This document shows, piece by piece, positions 50,453 through 62,023 of a stretch of DNA of 64,000 nt (its first letter is position 1; each line of letters opens with the position of its first letter). Source of the DNA: a virus. A model generated the notes under the pieces. That model made no database searches. It had not been told where the DNA came from and was given only the letters and a program-made list of their open reading frames with translations. The position numbers and the translations under genes were made by a program. The stretch covers positions 9,110 through 73,109 of IMG/VR virus record IMGVR_UViG_3300029893_000003; one strand, written 5' to 3'.

Positions 50453-50599
50453 ATGAAAACCCTACTCGAATGGGTGTTAGGCATTTCTGTATGTTCGGTA
50501 ATTCTGTATGCTGGCTACGAGAATCCAAATAGTTATGTAATGTTGGGAATGGTTGTGACTGTGGTGGTGTCCAGTCTTTTGCTTACCAAACGGGCCTGA
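50453..50599 (+). CDS. Small membrane protein (48 aa), stop codon overlapping the mini-tmRNA 5' end
   Basis: AGGAG RBS; MKTLLEWVLGISVCSVILYAG...LLLTKRA*. Confidence 0.55.
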   Translation: MKTLLEWVLGISVCSVILYAGYENPNSYVMLGMVVTVVVSSLLLTKRA

Positions 50600-50679
50600 C
50601 AGGTTTCGATGGCGGGGAGTCTTGCAGTTGGGTGTTAGGCTCCCCGCTAGACCTACGTTCAATTCGTAGCAGGTCCACC
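50592..50679 (+). ncRNA. tmRNA-like RNA consisting only of the tRNA-like domain (no mRNA-like domain)
   Basis: Acceptor GGGCCTG/CAGGTCC with G3.U70 and A73; D-loop-like ACAGGTTTCGA; helix TGGCGGGGAG/CTCCCCGCTA; GAC linker; T-arm CTACG-TTCAATT-CGTAG. Confidence 0.75.
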
Positions 50680-53037: not shown

Positions 53038-53335
53038 TGTGAGTGATTTTCTTTACTACTTATTACTTATTTTAGACTTCCTTATGCCAAAACGAACTGA
53101 CAACTACCAGGAATATCTACGATCTTCTAGGTGGAGAGGCATAAGGAAAAGGGCCTTGGAACGGGCGGGTTATCGGTGTCAGCTATGTAACTCGCCCACC
53201 AGACTACAGGTACACCATCGGACGTATGATCGACTAGGAAATGAACGGCTTGATGATCTTATTGTGCTGTGTCAAAAATGTCATACAGCGTTTCATGTAC
53301 ACAGGAAATTGCACAAACCTAGAAAAAGGGCTTGA
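53030..53335 (+). CDS. HNH endonuclease
   Basis: YLRSSRW...CQLC...LQVHH...LIVLCQKCHTAFH. Confidence 0.85.
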   Translation: MNSVSDFLYYLLLILDFLMPKRTDNYQEYLRSSRWRGIRKRALERAGYRCQLCNSPTRLQVHHRTYDRLGNERLDDLIVLCQKCHTAFHVHRKLHKPRKRA

Positions 53336-53360
53336 CAAAGGTTTTGAGGTATGCTATACT
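53332..53360 (+). promoter_or_regulatory. Sigma70 promoter for the ~350-nt ncRNA
   Basis: TTGACA-17-TATACT with extended -10 TG. Confidence 0.85.
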
Positions 53361-53367
53361 GTGTACA

Positions 53368-53716
53368 GTGAGACAGAAAGCTGCGTGGGTGGCGGCTAGG
53401 AAACCTTCAGTCGAATTGAGACGAGTTTTATTGTTAGTCCTTAATGCCGCCACCGACGAAGTTGAAGGGCTTGAAGTAGAGGCAACCAAACATTCATAGC
53501 GTACACTCTCCTTTTGGTTAGCCGATGAGAAAACTTTATCCTTAAAGGTTGCCTCTACTTCAAGCCTTTGCGACGGGCTTTGACCTAGACAATAGGAGTC
53601 CCCCTTTGTGCAGAGGGGAGTGCCGTAGGAGCGCAGGTAAAGGTTGCACAGCCATCCTACCTCTTGATGGTGGGCAGGAGTAAATATAATTTCATACTTA
53701 TATCCCACCTTTTTTT
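53368..53716 (+). ncRNA. Candidate structured RNA with two pseudoknots, class unassigned
   Basis: Bounded by the promoter and a GGTGGG/CCCACC-U8 terminator; stems GGTGGCGGC/GCCGCCACC and a ~23-bp stem around GGCTTGAAGTAGAGGCAACC; pseudoknot candidates TATTGT/ACAATA and TGTGCA/TGCACA. Confidence 0.65.
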
Positions 53717-53718
53717 TC

Positions 53719-53747
53719 TTGACAAGTTAAATGAAGTGTGTTAAAGT
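53719..53747 (+). promoter_or_regulatory. Sigma70 promoter for the Y RNA-Ro60 operon
   Basis: TTGACA-17-TAAAGT with extended -10 TG. Confidence 0.75.
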
Positions 53748-53749
53748 AA

Positions 53750-53818
53750 GGCTAGCGAACCGAAAAGGCGTGGTTATCCATGATCGAATACTCCACCCTT
53801 GTTTACTTGTTCGCTAAA
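53750..53818 (+). ncRNA. Y RNA-like RNA 1
   Basis: TAGCGAAC-CGA...CTT-GTTCGCTA, matching the Ro60-binding stem geometry (C-CGA / CUU-G) of Y RNAs. Confidence 0.7.
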
Positions 53819-53822
53819 ACAT

Positions 53823-53905
53823 GCGTGTCCAGGACTGGCAGGCGTTGGCCCTAAGCGAAGTTCAAGCCAACATCACCTGCGGGGGTTCAACTCCCTCGAC
53901 ACGCT
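53823..53905 (+). ncRNA. Atypical tRNA-like element (acceptor and T-arm, rudimentary D region, elongated anticodon-position arm)
   Basis: GCGTGTC/GACACGC acceptor; GGGGG-TTCAACT-CCCTC T-arm; GCAGG/CCTGC plus GTTGGC/GCCAAC arm. Confidence 0.6.
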
Positions 53906-53906
53906 C

Positions 53907-53979
53907 TATCGAGCCGAGGGGTTCAGGGTTACCTACATAGCGAATGTAAACCAATTCCCTACCCGCACCTTGCTCGATA
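53907..53979 (+). ncRNA. Y RNA-like RNA 2
   Basis: TATCGAGC-CGA...CTT-GCTCGATA stem with the same motif. Confidence 0.7.
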
Positions 53980-54114: not shown

Positions 54115-54227
54115 AATGTATGGACCGTTTTTGTCCGACTAGATAGGCGAGATAACAGAGTGGTTGGTTCCTGTTATTACTATCTGTGTCGGGCACATCG
54201 TCCGACACTTTTCATAAGGAGAATCTA

Positions 54228-55793
54228 ATGGATTACGGAAAGTATTTTAACACCCGCAAGACCCCTCAGAGCCAACCCCTTCCCAATCAAGTGCAGAATA
54301 ACGCTGGTGGTTATTCTTTTCAGGTCGATAAGTGGATGTTGCTGGATCGCTTCCTGATCCTGGGTACAGAGGGTGGATCGTATTACGTGGGGGAACAAGC
54401 TCTCACCGTTGAAAATGCGCGCGCTGCCTACGAATGTATTCAGGAAGACGGTATTCGTGTTGTGGATCGCGTAGTAGAAATTTCTGTTCAGGGACGTGCA
54501 GCTAAGAATGATCCTGCTCTTTATGTTCTAGCTATGGCAGCAGGGACAGGTAATCTAGCCACGCGACGGTACGCTTTATCATATCTTTCTGAGGTAGCGC
54601 GTACTGGAACACATCTATTTACCTTTGTTGATTACGTGCAGCAGTTTCGTGGGTGGGGTCGTGCCCTGAAAAATGCAGTTGGTAACTGGTATCTGGATCG
54701 CCCGATTGAGAAGTTGGCGTATCAGGCTATCAAGTACCGCAACCGTAAGGGCTGGACTCACGCTGATGTGTTGCGTAAGGCACATCCAAAAGCCCACAAC
54801 CAGCTTCAAAATGATCTGTTCAAGTGGATTGTAGATGGTGACGTGCCTAGTATCCAACTGGTACGGGCATTTGAGGCCGCTAAGACCGCTTCGGAAGATG
54901 ATCTTGTAGCTTTGATTGCACAGTATGATCTTCCTCGCGAAGCCTTGCCTACTGAAGCCCTGAACAGCCCGAAGGTATGGCGTTCTTTGTTGGTTCACAT
55001 GCCGTTGATGGCCCTGGTTCGTAACCTGGGTAAGCTGAGTAATGTTGGCGTGGTCGCTCCTGGTCGTTGGGTGGAAATTGAACACACGGTTGGGATGCTG
55101 ACAAACCGCCAAAAAATTCAGCAGTCTCGTATTCACCCTATTCAGGTACTTGCTGCGCTGACTACCTATTCTCAGGGACGGGGCGTACGTGGCAGTTTAA
55201 CGTGGGATGTGGTACCGGAGATTGTTGCAGCACTAAACACAACCTATGAAATGGCGTTTGATAACGTAGAGCCGAGCGGAAAAAAGACACTGGTCGCGTT
55301 GGACGTGTCCTCGTCAATGACATGGGGCGAAGTGTCTGGTGTTCCGGGCTTGACTCCGCGTGTGGCGGCGGCTGCAATGGCAATGATGACCATCAAGACC
55401 GAACCATATACCCTGCCGTTGGCGTTTTCTACTGAGCCTACGCCGATGAATCTGAATAAGTCTATGTCGCTGAATGAAGTAATCCGTGAGATGGAGCGTA
55501 TTCGGTTTGGTGGTACGGATTGCGCCTTGCCGATGCTATGGGCACTAGAGAACAAGGCTGAAGTTGATCTATTTGTGGTGTATACAGATAGCGAAACGTG
55601 GTACGGAAAGATTCATCCTGTTCAGGCATTGCAAATGTATCGTGAGCAGATGGGCATTCCCGCAAAGTTGGCTGTTGTAGGGATGCTGGCAAATAAGTTT
55701 TCGATTGCCGATCCGAACGATCCTGGTATGCTAGATTTTGTGGGCTTTGATACATCTGTTCCACAGGCACTAGCCGAATTTGCTAAGATGTAG
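54228..55793 (+). CDS. rsr: Ro60/Rsr TROVE-domain RNA-binding protein with vWA domain
   Basis: NNAGGYSF, LDRFLILGTEGGSYY, KYRNRKGWTHADVLRKAHP, MPLMALVRNLGKL, MIDAS DVSSSM, GGTDCALPM, YTDSETW, DPNDPGMLDFVGFD. Confidence 0.95.
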   Translation: MDYGKYFNTRKTPQSQPLPNQVQNNAGGYSFQVDKWMLLDRFLILGTEGGSYYVGEQALTVENARAAYECIQEDGIRVVDRVVEISVQGRAAKNDPALYVLAMAAGTGNLATRRYALSYLSEVARTGTHLFTFVDYVQQFRGWGRALKNAVGNWYLDRPIEKLAYQAIKYRNRKGWTHADVLRKAHPKAHNQLQNDLFKWIVDGDVPSIQLVRAFEAAKTASEDDLVALIAQYDLPREALPTEALNSPKVWRSLLVHMPLMALVRNLGKLSNVGVVAPGRWVEIEHTVGMLTNRQKIQQSRIHPIQVLAALTTYSQGRGVRGSLTWDVVPEIVAALNTTYEMAFDNVEPSGKKTLVALDVSSSMTWGEVSGVPGLTPRVAAAAMAMMTIKTEPYTLPLAFSTEPTPMNLNKSMSLNEVIREMERIRFGGTDCALPMLWALENKAEVDLFVVYTDSETWYGKIHPVQALQMYREQMGIPAKLAVVGMLANKFSIADPNDPGMLDFVGFDTSVPQALAEFAKM

Positions 55794-55818
55794 GGGGAGT
55801 AATCCCCCTTATTAATAA

Positions 55819-55891
55819 GGGACTGTAGCTCAGCGGTTAGAGCAACCGGCTCATAACCGGTCGGTCACAGGTTCGAATCCTGTCAGTCCCA
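55819..55891 (+). tRNA. tRNA with CAT anticodon (probably Ile2/lysidine type; elongator Met not excluded); CCA not encoded
   Basis: GGGACTG/CAGTCCC acceptor; D-arm GCTCAGCGGTTAGAGC; anticodon arm ACCGG-CTCATAA-CCGGT; T-arm ACAGG-TTCGAAT-CCTGT. Confidence 0.9.
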
Positions 55892-56479: not shown

Positions 56480-59400
56480 ATGCCTGAGCCTACACAAGAA
56501 CAAGTTTCTATTATCAACTTCCCTGCTGATGAACATCTAGCTGTTGAAGCGGTCCCAGGTAGTGGGAAGTGTCTGGGTAAGGATACCCCCGTTATGTTAT
56601 TTGATGGGACGGTTAGAGCGGTACAAGATATAGTACCCGGCGATTTGTTAATGGGACCAGACTCAAAGCCTCGCACTGTTTTGTCTACTTCCGTAGGGTA
56701 TGGAAATTTGTACAAAATTGTACCTACCAAGGGAGATGCGTGGATATGTAATGAAGAACATATCTTAACATTGGTCTATTCGGGAAAGGAAGAAGTTGAA
56801 GACGTATCTCTGTCAGAGTATTTTACTAGGTCAAGAGCATATCGTGAAAGGGCTAAGCTGTTCCGTGTTCCTGTGGACTTTCCTAAAAAAGAACTTCCTG
56901 TTGATCCTTACTTGTTGGGAGTTTGGTTAGGGGATGGACATAGAGACAACCCAATAATCACTAATAAAGAACCTATTATACAAGAGTATTGCGTAGCAAA
57001 GGCTAATGAGCTAGGAATATCTGCTATTGTAGTAGATGCTCCTGAAATAAATAGCCAATATATTTATCTAACAAACAACTACAAAGGAAATCCGTTACGC
57101 AAATTTTTTGCTTCTTGTGTTACTGATGATGGAGAAAAATTTATCCCGCAGGACTATCTTACCAGCAGCAGAGAAGATCGTTTAGATTTGTTGGCAGCCC
57201 TATTAGATACAGATGGATATTATAATGGTGGGTCCTTTGAAATTACTACCAAATATAACACCCTGAAAGACAACATATTGTTTCTAGCCAGAAGTTTGGG
57301 CTTTGCTGCCTATGCAAAACGCAAAGTAGCTGCTATCAAATCTCTAGACTTTTCAGGAGAATATTGGAGAATATCAATTAGTGGGGATGTAAGTATTATT
57401 CCCAATAAGATTCCTCGTAAACAAGCGTTTCCGCGACGACAGATTAAAAATGTGTTGCGTACAGGGTTTTCTGTGGAAGGCATAGGGAAAGGAGCATATT
57501 ACGGATTTACACTAGATGGTGATGGCAGGTTTTTGTTGGGTGACTTTACTGTAACTCACAATACGTTTACCATTGCCTACCGAGTAAAGGCTTTCTTGGA
57601 TCAGGGGGTTGATCCTGCTAATATTCTGGTGTGTACGTTCTCTCGCTCACAGGCAGAAGATATGTCTCTCCGTATTCTATCCTTCCTAAAGCAGCACTAC
57701 CCTACTATCGGCCTATCTGCTTTAGCGAATGGGTTTGGCGAGGGCATAGGACAGATTACGACCATCCACGCTACAGCTAGACGTATGCTAATCCACTATC
57801 CCGAATACACTAAGTATTCAGAACTACAAGTTGCTCCTACATGGAAAGAGCGTAGCATTATTGAAAACTTTGTGGAAAGAATTAACTGGACGTACTACAA
57901 TGTCCGAGAGAAAAAAGAAGCTCTCGTTGGCTATCAGTCAATTTTATTCTACATTAACAACGCTAAAAATGCGGGTGTCAATCTTAATGTAGCAGAACTG
58001 ACTGAATACTACCTTAGTACGGGATTGGGTAGAGAACACGTTCGTAACTTGGTGTCTACCACCCTGCACTACCAACAAGAACTACAACGCAACAATATGT
58101 GGACGTTTGCTGATATGCTGTATGAGTGCGAGAAGCAGCTTCGAGAGGATGCGGCTTTCCGTTCGTACTGGCATGATCGGTTTACTCATGTGTTGATTGA
58201 CGAAGCACAGGACACTAATGGACAGGCTATGCGAATTGTCCATCTCCTTAATCCTAGTAGTATTACTGTGGTGGGAGACGCTGATCAAACGTTGTACGCT
58301 TTCAATGGAGCAACACCAGATACCAACCTGCGTACAGGTTTTGATCAGCGGTTTGGCGGCGGTCGTCTTTCTATGTCAGTTAATTTCCGTAGCCAACCTA
58401 ACATCCTGAAACGAGCAGGGCTTCTTATTCGTCATAACTATGACAGTGAAACGATCAAATATATGAAAAACCTACAGCCACGCGAGGGTGTAGCTGTTGG
58501 AGATGATGTAACCTTTTCGTGGTATCAAGACGCCGAAGAAGAGGCGCGAGGAGTTGTTGCTAATCTTGTTCAATACATGGAAGAAGGGCATGTCCCTGGT
58601 GACTTCTTTATCATGTCGCGCACAAACGCGCAGATGGCGTACTTTGAACTAGAACTTTTAAACCACAATCTGCCCTTTGTGAACTTGGGCGTATCTAGTT
58701 TCTTTAACCGTCCGGTGCCGCGTATGCTGCTTAACTACATGCGGCTGGCTGTTGATCCGACTGATTGGGAAGCTTTTGATATTGTCCACAACGTAGCTTC
58801 TTGTTGGATGACTAACAACCAAGGCAAACCAATCAACACACGGTTCTTAGGACAGAAATTCCTAGAGAGACTTTCCCGCACCAATGGCGATGGAACCCCT
58901 ACAAACTCTCTGGAAGAGGCGTATGCCCATAAATACGATACTGATCAACGTGGGTGGACACGCTGGCAGAGGGGTGTTCAGGACTTGCAGGATACTATGC
59001 AGGCTCTTGCTGGATATGAAATGTCGCACAACGCAGGATCGTTGGCCTCTGAGATTACACGGATTGTAGTAGATAAGTGGATTGAAAACGAGTTTGGTGT
59101 TGAAACAGACGCTTCTGACGGTGCGCGGGATGATCTTCAGGTGGTGTTGGCGTTGGCTAAACGGTTTACAGTGCGTGATTTTCTTGAGTATGTGCGCCAG
59201 CTAACCGCTACTAAAGACATTAAGCCAGAGAATATGACGGACTATATTCTAATTGGCACAATCTATAAGTTTAAGGGTTTGGAGCGTCCGATAGTTTACG
59301 TGGTTGGTGCCAGTCAGGGCCTACTACCACACCGTTTCAGTTTGGGGGAAACCCCCCCGACCGATGGCTTGCCCATTCCCTCTACCGGAAGTTTGTGGGA

Positions 59401-59533
59401 TGAGCGGAACGTCATGTATGTGGCAGTAACCCGCGCTAAAGACGTATGCCACATTTCGGGTATTCAGAACTGGGCAACTATCAAAGACCCGCTTGAGCCT
59501 TCTATCTTCGTACAGGAAATGGAGTTGTTGTAA
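56480..59533 (+). CDS. UvrD/PcrA-like SF1 helicase interrupted by an intein
   Basis: AVPGSGK|TFT Walker A, LIDEAQD, VGDADQTLYAFNGA, NFRSQ, TIYKFKGLE, ERNVMYVAVTRAK. Confidence 0.9.
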   Translation: MPEPTQEQVSIINFPADEHLAVEAVPGSGKCLGKDTPVMLFDGTVRAVQDIVPGDLLMGPDSKPRTVLSTSVGYGNLYKIVPTKGDAWICNEEHILTLVYSGKEEVEDVSLSEYFTRSRAYRERAKLFRVPVDFPKKELPVDPYLLGVWLGDGHRDNPIITNKEPIIQEYCVAKANELGISAIVVDAPEINSQYIYLTNNYKGNPLRKFFASCVTDDGEKFIPQDYLTSSREDRLDLLAALLDTDGYYNGGSFEITTKYNTLKDNILFLARSLGFAAYAKRKVAAIKSLDFSGEYWRISISGDVSIIPNKIPRKQAFPRRQIKNVLRTGFSVEGIGKGAYYGFTLDGDGRFLLGDFTVTHNTFTIAYRVKAFLDQGVDPANILVCTFSRSQAEDMSLRILSFLKQHYPTIGLSALANGFGEGIGQITTIHATARRMLIHYPEYTKYSELQVAPTWKERSIIENFVERINWTYYNVREKKEALVGYQSILFYINNAKNAGVNLNVAELTEYYLSTGLGREHVRNLVSTTLHYQQELQRNNMWTFADMLYECEKQLREDAAFRSYWHDRFTHVLIDEAQDTNGQAMRIVHLLNPSSITVVGDADQTLYAFNGATPDTNLRTGFDQRFGGGRLSMSVNFRSQPNILKRAGLLIRHNYDSETIKYMKNLQPREGVAVGDDVTFSWYQDAEEEARGVVANLVQYMEEGHVPGDFFIMSRTNAQMAYFELELLNHNLPFVNLGVSSFFNRPVPRMLLNYMRLAVDPTDWEAFDIVHNVASCWMTNNQGKPINTRFLGQKFLERLSRTNGDGTPTNSLEEAYAHKYDTDQRGWTRWQRGVQDLQDTMQALAGYEMSHNAGSLASEITRIVVDKWIENEFGVETDASDGARDDLQVVLALAKRFTVRDFLEYVRQLTATKDIKPENMTDYILIGTIYKFKGLERPIVYVVGASQGLLPHRFSLGETPPTDGLPIPSTGSLWDERNVMYVAVTRAKDVCHISGIQNWATIKDPLEPSIFVQEMELL
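56570..57562 (+). mobile_element. Intein with LAGLIDADG endonuclease (331 aa) in the helicase P-loop
   Basis: Starts CLGKDTPV, ends VTHN followed by Thr+1; LGVWLGDG and LAALLDTDG motifs. Confidence 0.95.
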
Positions 59534-61341: not shown

Positions 61342-61712
61342 TGTTGAAGAGGGCTTATCACGAATCGTTTGGTGAGATAAGCCCCGAACAGGCCGATATG
61401 AGGTCGCTTAGTGGTGTGTCTTCGGATAATCCACTAAGCGACCTTTATAACCCGGCCAAGGTCGGGGATAAACCAACTGATTTGGTAACGTTTCTGCTGG
61501 CAGAGCAGCGTAAGGTGTATGGATATACCTACTTAGATAGATTACCTTACCCTGCCCTAGTGAAACATGCCAAACTACTGCTGAAAAAGTATTCTCCACA
61601 GCTTATTAAAAGAGGAATTGCTTTGTCGGTTAGATGGGGCAAGTATCCGGCATCATTTAAGTTTGTGGAAGGGTGTATATTAAGAATAATAAAGTCAACT
61701 ACCCCTGGCTAA
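61341..61712 (+). CDS. Hypothetical protein with C-terminus altered by an IS remnant
   Basis: Removing 61694-62023 restores ...RIIKSQFKSYEEAQAARKK* ending just before the primase ATG. Confidence 0.65.
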   Translation: MLKRAYHESFGEISPEQADMRSLSGVSSDNPLSDLYNPAKVGDKPTDLVTFLLAEQRKVYGYTYLDRLPYPALVKHAKLLLKKYSPQLIKRGIALSVRWGKYPASFKFVEGCILRIIKSTTPG

Positions 61713-62023
61713 AGCCGGGAGCTTGTAAGTCGATACCGCTAGGCGGTACTGCCTACGATTGGCGGGTTGACAGCCGCCCGGCGGGAGATGTTCACCGCCG
61801 CGAAGTGGTCAGCGTGGCCGACGCAGCCACACTCAACGCAGGAGAAGGTGCTTTGATCAGGACGGTTCCGTTTGTCGATACAGCCGCAAGCCGGACAGGT
61901 GCGCGAGGTGTTGCGCGGGTCTACCGCGACCACCGGCACACCTGCCAACCGCGCCTTGTACTCGACGTACCGGCGCAATTGAGAGAACGACCAGCTATGC
62001 AAGGTGGCGCGTCTAGCATGGTG
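61694..62023 (-). mobile_element. Internally deleted IS200/IS605 element (tnpB 3' fragment plus right end)
   Basis: Fragment LHSWSFSQLR...TSRTCPACG...ADHFAAVNI; RE GCTCCCGGCTTTAGCCAGGGGTAGTTGAC; TGAC at the left junction. Confidence 0.8.

What the first reader, a model, noticed from the sequence alone, without database searches (positions are those of the whole stretch)
53823..53905. Atypical tRNA-like spacer punctuating the Y RNA array
Seen: a perfect 7-bp acceptor and a T-arm, but only an 8-nt D region and an elongated, bulged arm in place of the anticodon arm. It begins about 5 nt after Y RNA 1 and ends 1 nt before Y RNA 2. Established: RNase P and RNase Z recognise the acceptor/T-arm elbow (tRNA punctuation, as for mascRNA). 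Inference: a processing signal that releases the Y RNA ends, or an anticodon-nuclease decoy. Its topology echoes the mini-tmRNA at 50592.
Basis: partly seen in the sequence, partly recalled or inferred. Interest (0 to 1): 0.6.

Follow-up and report, generated by a model that had tools for sequence, protein, structure and literature searches.

The report
tRNA-shaped cut signal between Y RNAs
In this uncultured bacterial virus, a non-decoding, tRNA-shaped piece of RNA sits between two small Ro60-partner RNAs. It most likely gets the host's tRNA-trimming enzymes to cut them apart, a known trick seen here in an unusually stripped-down and swappable form.

Summary
The element is real: a 7-bp acceptor stem plus T-arm (53823-53905), an 8-nt D region and a bulged arm. 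It lies 6 nt after Y RNA 1 and 1 nt before Y RNA 2, upstream of a phage ro60 gene. Near-identical phages (Ro60 about 97-98%) carry three different alleles in this slot. Between alleles A and B, 12 substitutions in 23 pairs break no pair (5 compensatory). Allele C has no long arm and keeps only an imperfect acceptor/T stack. All alleles keep U at -1, G at +1 and the same distance to Y2. There is no anticodon loop, no consistent anticodon, no Ro60 helix and no tmRNA identity, so the decoy, intron-tRNA and tmRNA readings are poorly supported. Best reading (about 0.6): a t-element-like signal for host RNase P (Y1 3' end) and probably RNase Z (Y2 5' end). No cut is shown. Precedents: D. radiodurans Yrn2-tRNAAsp-Yrn1 and plant mitochondrial t-elements. 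Unrelated Ro60 loci show the same layout, and this scan noted tRNA-flanked Y RNAs before on other DNA (e1-5406826). New variant of a known kind.

The parts
53719..53747 (+). sigma70-type promoter (TTGACA-17-TG-TAAAGT); predicted start about 53753-53755 coincides with the Y1 5' end
   Evidence: kept in relatives (L008 has TTAACA)
53753..53816 (+). Y RNA 1, simple hairpin with bulged-C Ro60 helix
53817..53822 (+). 6-nt single-stranded leader ending CAU; U at -1 in all three alleles
53823..53829 (+). acceptor stem 5' strand; predicted RNase P cut 5' of G53823
53830..53837 (+). 8-nt D region containing GG; 17 nt with a hairpin in allele B, a different hairpin in allele C
53838..53880 (+). long arm: 5 bp, 1x4 internal loop, 6 bp, 16-nt loop; structure kept in allele B by 3 compensatory changes, absent in allele C
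53881..53897 (+). T-arm, identical over 17 nt to the T-arm of Chloroflexota tRNA-Ser(UGA) genes near ro60 (L093, L113)
53898..53905 (+). acceptor 3' strand and discriminator U73; no encoded CCA (followed by CUA); predicted RNase Z cut after 53905 or 53906
53907..53979 (+). Y RNA 2, simple hairpin with bulged-C Ro60 helix
53994..54114 (+). Y RNA 3, YrlA type (T-arm, short closed acceptor, D-arm)
   Evidence: Rfam RF02553 33 bits, below gathering 69
54186..54208 (+). terminator-like hairpin ahead of the ro60 ribosome-binding site
54228..55793 (+). ro60/rsr gene, 521 aa (TROVE + vWA_Ro60)

Best explanation
One transcript starts at the Y1 5' end and runs Y1 - spacer - Y2 - Y3, folding as four independent domains. 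The spacer is a former tRNA (probably; its T-arm matches class II tRNAs) that lost decoding but kept the 12-bp acceptor/T stack. Host RNase P measures that stack and cuts at 53822/53823, giving Y1 its 3' end. Host RNase Z cuts after base 73 or 74 (53905/53906), giving Y2 its 5' end at or next to its first paired base. The released piece is a by-product, possibly CCA-tailed. Shown: the structure, its conservation by compensatory change, the fixed spacing, and the loss of an anticodon. Inferred: transcription, both cuts, the enzymes, the host (Chloroflexota likely), and the tRNA origin. The RNase P cut is more secure than the RNase Z cut.
For: Three alleles occupy one slot between Y1 and Y2. Spacer A vs B is 66% identical while the flanking Y RNAs and ro60 are 91-98%, yet 0 of 23 pairs break: 5 compensatory, 2 one-sided; 51 in 2 million random placements do this (one search agrees). 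Allele C (L005) drops the long arm and keeps a 12-position acceptor/T stack; pair 4-69 is U-A, C-G, G-C in the three alleles. U-1, G+1 and a 2-nt gap from position 72 to the Y2 stem are invariant. In other Ro60 loci 24 Y hairpins (23 distinct) follow a tRNA-like 3' end within 14 nt, 13 of the 23 at a gap of 2-3 nt (binomial 1e-6 against uniform; loci not fully independent). L070/L071 and L144 hold unrelated anticodon-less spacers between two hairpin Y RNAs. Literature: RNase P measures the T/acceptor stack and the D-loop is dispensable (PMC4919913); RNase Z cuts CCA-less precursors after N73 (PMC3161902); D. radiodurans makes Yrn2-tRNAAsp-Yrn1 as one precursor (PMC4201824). Three Chloroflexota genomes carry RNase P RNA and an RNase Z-like gene at 265-274 bits, just under the 293 cut-off; the phage encodes neither.
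Against: No RNA data; no cut is mapped. The Y2-Y3 junction here, and the two-Y arrays of the next-closest Ro60 phages (L006, L007), have no tRNA-like spacer, so Y RNAs can be separated, or used, without one. The long arm is under structural selection in A and B, which a bare cut signal would not need. C74 follows base 73; from memory this slows B. subtilis RNase Z (paper not held). There is no RCCA for the RNase P L15 contact. Allele C is a weak mimic (6-bp acceptor, C-C mismatch in the T-stem) and was read from one contig. The structure was drawn from these same sequences, and A vs B is a single comparison. Most of the 338 loosely detected Y hairpins have no tRNA-like neighbour.
Confidence: 0.62

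Rival explanations
1. The spacer is cut out but is itself the product: a stable, perhaps CCA-tailed, non-decoding tRNA mimic that binds Ro60, PNPase or a translation factor, like D. radiodurans RNAs a and b.
For: The long arm is kept by compensatory changes in A and B. D. radiodurans RNAs a and b lie upstream of rsr, have T-arms and bind Rsr weakly (PMC4201824). The phage also carries a stand-alone tmRNA tRNA-like domain.
Against: Allele C lacks the arm. Loop identity between A and B (10 of 16-17) is no higher than the overall 66%. No bulged-C Ro60 helix compatible with the fold. Base 73 and acceptor pairs differ among alleles, so there is no fixed aminoacylation identity.
Confidence: 0.14
2. 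The transcript is not cut here; the spacer is a rigid insulator or protective domain in a long multi-Ro60 scaffold RNA.
For: The whole transcript folds as independent domains. The Y2-Y3 junction has no such signal. A nuclease-protective role was proposed for tRNA-like modules of Y RNAs (PMC4201824).
Against: An insulator needs no 12-bp stack, T-loop consensus, U-1 or fixed 2-nt gap. A 7-bp acceptor was enough for RNase P cleavage of M. smegmatis YrlA (PMC4201824).
Confidence: 0.1
3. A decaying tRNA pseudogene with no current role.
For: It diverges much faster than its flanks; T-arm like that of class II tRNAs.
Against: No broken pair among 12 paired-site substitutions; slot and spacing kept in all 11 independent-looking sequences read (1 A, 9 B, 1 C). 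One B copy from a low-coverage contig (L173) has a damaged T-arm along with other homopolymer losses, probably errors.
Confidence: 0.07
4. An intron-containing tRNA. Removing 11 nt (A) or 12 nt (B) after position 32 leaves a C-U-UCA-R-G loop that would read UGA.
For: ARAGORN at 95% threshold calls A a SeC-type tRNA with an 11-nt intron; the matching excision in B (L008) also gives UCA. A weak bulge-helix-loop can be drawn in A. Rfam tRNA-Sec 16 bits.
Against: No call at default threshold; relaxed calls give UCA, UAG and AGC for three sequences and none for C; many other excisions also pass. The bulge-helix-loop is absent in B and is one of several chance matches. Too short for a self-splicing intron; no splicing endonuclease or RtcB in the phage; host is bacterial. 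A has no U8 and no D-stem. The Sec score is a third of the gathering score.
Confidence: 0.04
5. A decoy that soaks up host anticodon nucleases.
For: Phage context with Ro60; other Ro60 phages carry RNA ligases.
Against: These nucleases recognise a 7-nt anticodon loop (own knowledge); here the loop is 16-17 nt, has no constant anticodon, and is missing in allele C.
Confidence: 0.03

Closest known systems
D. radiodurans Yrn2-tRNAAsp-Yrn1 polycistronic precursor, and RNAs a/b upstream of rsr (Chen et al. 2014, PMC4201824)
   Same: A tRNA-shaped unit between two Y RNAs on one transcript ahead of ro60/rsr; non-Y RNAs with T-arms in the same locus.
   Different: There the middle unit is annotated as a tRNA-Asp; here it cannot decode, varies among near-identical phages and can shrink to about 57 nt.
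Plant mitochondrial t-elements (Forner et al. 2007, PMC1920247)
   Same: Non-canonical tRNA-like structures with an intact T-arm and acceptor whose ends coincide with the ends of neighbouring RNAs; RNase P and RNase Z implicated.
   Different: Organelle mRNA ends, with mapped cuts; here a bacteriophage ncRNA array, cuts not mapped.
mascRNA/menRNA (Rfam RF01684; summarised in bioRxiv 10.1101/312249)
   Same: A tRNA-like module cut by RNase P to make the 3' end of the upstream RNA.
   Different: No homology (11.7 bits on the T-arm only, gathering 42.5); vertebrate lncRNA context; no downstream RNA released.
tmRNA tRNA-like domain (mini-tmRNA at 50592)
   Same: Three-way topology: acceptor, stemless D region, long arm, T-arm.
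   Different: No G3-U70, no A73/ACC end, no tmRNA D-loop consensus, no 3-4 nt linker before the T-arm; 7.8 bits with the spacer model.
YrlA and tRNA-shaped Y RNAs (RF02553)
   Same: tRNA mimicry next to Ro60; tRNA-order Y RNAs with a Ro helix in place of the anticodon arm are common in related loci (about 55 of 161) and often directly precede a hairpin Y RNA.
   Different: The spacer's arm has no Ro60 helix; similarity of the arm to Y2 is weak (p 0.014 for A, 0.2 for B; six tests).

Membership tests
canonical tRNA | 7-bp acceptor and 5-bp T-stem with TTCRANY loop | tested here: met
canonical tRNA | U8, D stem-loop | tested here: not met
   C8 and only 8 nt in allele A
canonical tRNA | 5-bp anticodon stem with 7-nt loop; ARAGORN/Rfam call | tested here: not met
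   16-nt loop; no default call
intron-containing tRNA | conserved bulge-helix-bulge/loop or a self-splicing intron, and one consistent anticodon | tested here: not met
   the UCA coincidence between A and B remains unexplained
Y RNA (Ro60 ligand) | bulged-C GNCGA helix | tested here: not met
   found in Y1, Y2, Y3; in the spacer only single chance matches that conflict with the fold and differ between alleles
Y RNA (Ro60 ligand) | binds Ro60 | not testable with these tools
   needs EMSA or pull-down
tmRNA tRNA-like domain | G3-U70, A73, CCA, D-loop consensus | tested here: not met
   G3-C70, U73, CUA; 7.8 bits
t-element / tRNA punctuation signal | intact acceptor/T stack with degenerate D and anticodon parts | tested here: met
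t-element / tRNA punctuation signal | ends abut the ends of the neighbouring RNAs | tested here: met
   6 nt and 1 nt from predicted Y stems, kept in all alleles; ends are predicted, not mapped
t-element / tRNA punctuation signal | cleaved by RNase P and RNase Z in vivo or in vitro | not testable with these tools
   no RNA data available

The most novel reading that the evidence does not exclude
Phage and bacterial Ro60 operons carry a recurrent, exchangeable class of non-decoding tRNA-shaped cassettes that both release Y RNAs and persist as CCA-tailed mimics with a role of their own, carried by the conserved long arm (for example as a Ro60/PNPase ligand or translation-factor decoy).
Probability: 0.18. 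Interest if true: 0.65.

Novelty: new variant of a known kind. Interest (0 to 1): 0.4.

Why it matters
How bacterial and phage Y RNAs get their ends is little studied in the papers I could search. This locus offers a natural allelic series (83, 93 and 57 nt) in an otherwise near-identical operon, which makes the punctuation model directly testable with three short templates and commercial or recombinant RNase P/Z. It extends t-element logic from organelles to a bacteriophage ncRNA array and flags a class of elements that tRNA scanners and Rfam miss. The principle itself is known, so the surprise is moderate.

Tried and rejected
Three DNA-pattern scans of viral contigs gave nothing or chance hits only. 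BLASTN against cultured phages matched only Y3 and tRNA T-arms, not the spacer; seven cultured Ro60 phages showed no atypical spacer by my scan. Covariance model R1 found no A/B-type homolog outside this phage group; next hits were class II tRNAs at 20-30 bits. ARAGORN at 70% threshold was pure noise. attP remnant rejected: the 5' acceptor strand covaries with the 3' strand and only the 17-nt T-arm matches host-type tRNAs. Degenerate tRNA-shaped Y RNA as origin: not excluded but weakly supported. A self-complementary loop (GAACGUUC in B, imperfect in A) could allow kissing dimers; no test possible. Reviews by Sim and Wolin and Pellegrini 2003 were not held.

Full report
Setting. The window lies in an 82-kb virus record, about 95% complete. 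A cell-wall protein whose nearest clusters are mostly Chloroflexota, and Ro60 hits led by Anaerolineae, suggest a Chloroflexota host; this is inferred. A sigma70-type promoter at 53719-53747 precedes three RNAs with the bulged-C Ro60 helix: two simple hairpins and a YrlA-like RNA. The ro60 gene follows. The whole transcript folds as four separate domains.

Observation. The spacer has a perfect 7-bp acceptor, U73, an 8-nt D region, a 5+6-bp arm with a 1x4 internal loop and 16-nt loop, and a normal T-arm. A strict acceptor+T-arm pattern occurs three times in the genome, always at a real tRNA-like gene, and never in 100 simulated strands.

Comparative evidence. Ro60 proteins about 97-98% identical led to further contigs. 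The slot between Y1 and Y2 holds three alleles: A (this phage, 83 nt), B (nine contigs, 93 nt, with a 17-nt D hairpin) and C (L005, 57 nt). A and B are 66% identical, against 91-98% for the flanking Y RNAs and ro60. The 12 substitutions in their 23 pairs give 5 compensatory and 2 one-sided changes and no broken pair; random placement does this 51 times in 2 million. Slid-register controls fall to 40-59% pairing. Caveats: the structure was drawn from these sequences and this is one pairwise comparison. A model built from A and B finds C in the same slot at 21.9 bits, with the long arm deleted. C keeps six acceptor pairs and an imperfect T-stem, 12 stacked positions in all. In L005 the Y1 and Y2 interiors also differ (63-70%), so C comes with a different block. 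What all alleles share is CAU before G+1, the acceptor/T stack, a T-loop, and base 73 followed by one C and then the Y2 stem.

Wider pattern. Among 161 more distant Ro60 loci, ordinary tRNAs stand shortly before a Y motif in 18 loci, and tRNA-shaped Y RNAs (Ro helix in place of the anticodon arm) occur in about 55. Where a closed Y hairpin follows a tRNA-like 3' end within 14 nt, the gap is 2-3 nt in 13 of 23 distinct cases, as here. L070/L071 and L144 carry unrelated anticodon-less tRNA-like units between two hairpin Y RNAs. The detector is loose and most hairpins have no such neighbour. The next-closest phage arrays (L006, L007) lack a spacer altogether, as does the Y2-Y3 junction here. The device is therefore optional.

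Mechanism. RNase P measures the T/acceptor stack and does not need the D-loop (PMC4919913). RNase Z cuts CCA-less precursors after base 73, and a chloroplast enzyme cuts after C74 (PMC3161902). Y1's 5' end is the predicted transcription start, so these two cuts would supply the two missing ends. The phage encodes neither enzyme; three Chloroflexota genomes carry RNase P RNA and a near-threshold RNase Z homolog. Both cuts are inferred. The RNase Z step is the weaker one because of C74 (inhibitory for some enzymes, from memory).

Rivals. An anticodon decoy or spliced tRNA needs a constant anticodon loop. Relaxed ARAGORN gives UCA, UAG and AGC for three sequences and nothing for C; the phage has no splicing endonuclease or RtcB; splice-like motifs are not shared. 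One oddity remains: matching excisions in A and B both leave a C-U-UCA-R-G loop, perhaps a trace of the ancestral tRNA. The T-arm equals that of Chloroflexota tRNA-Ser genes near ro60. The mini-tmRNA resemblance is only topological. The long arm's conservation in A and B leaves room for a role of the released RNA, as for D. radiodurans RNAs a and b.

Prior knowledge and verdict. D. radiodurans transcribes Yrn2, tRNAAsp and Yrn1 together, and M. smegmatis YrlA with a 7-bp acceptor is cut by RNase P (PMC4201824). Plant mitochondrial t-elements set RNA ends through RNase P and Z (PMC1920247). The passages I retrieved from the phiLo Ro60 paper describe two phage Y RNAs and do not mention RNase P (PMC12135203). 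In the held literature I found no description of non-decoding spacers in Y RNA arrays, but key reviews were not available. Earlier notes of this scan reported tRNA-flanked Y RNAs in other phages. It works like a t-element; it is not a tRNA, a Y RNA or a tmRNA by the features tested. New variant of a known kind, interest 0.4.

Noticed in passing
window 50592-50679: tmRNA tRNA-like domain without a tag region (G3-U70, A73, ACC end); conserved in L008 2150-2234; no Rfam hit.
   Followed up: partly
window 53366-53716: About 350-nt structured non-coding RNA with its own strong promoter (53332-53360), a roughly 23-bp helix, folding z -5.7, no meaningful Rfam match; nearly identical in relatives.
   Followed up: partly
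L013 2159-2280, L016, L020, L037, L061, L151, L163 and others: tRNA-order Y RNAs: acceptor, D-arm, capped Ro60 helix in place of the anticodon arm, T-arm; about 77 copies in 55 of 161 Ro60 loci by a loose filter.
   Followed up: partly
L005 490-990: An HNH_3 endonuclease gene is inserted between Y2 and Y3 in the allele-C phage.
   Followed up: no
window 55793-55891: Hairpin then a CCA-less non-initiator tRNA(CAU) directly after ro60; RNase P cleavage there could also set the ro60 mRNA 3' end. In L005 this tRNA has an insertion in the variable region.
   Followed up: no
window 56480-59533: UvrD-like helicase carrying an intein with homing endonuclease; intein absent in L005, L174, L175 (686 aa).
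   Followed up: no
window 61694-61798: Weak HEARO match (22 bits, gathering 83) beside a short TnpB-like C-terminal fragment on the minus strand.
   Followed up: no
L070 1819-1937; L144 943-1085; L077 1800-1868; L019 2294-2347: Other anticodon-less tRNA-like units next to Y RNAs: a Leu-like body with rebuilt arms, a tRNA with a very long AT-rich hairpin, one with a shrunken anticodon arm, and a 53-nt minimal form.
   Followed up: partly
L006 3875-4891; L007 2211-3227: The two next-closest Ro60 phages carry a T4-type RNA ligase near ro60.
   Followed up: no
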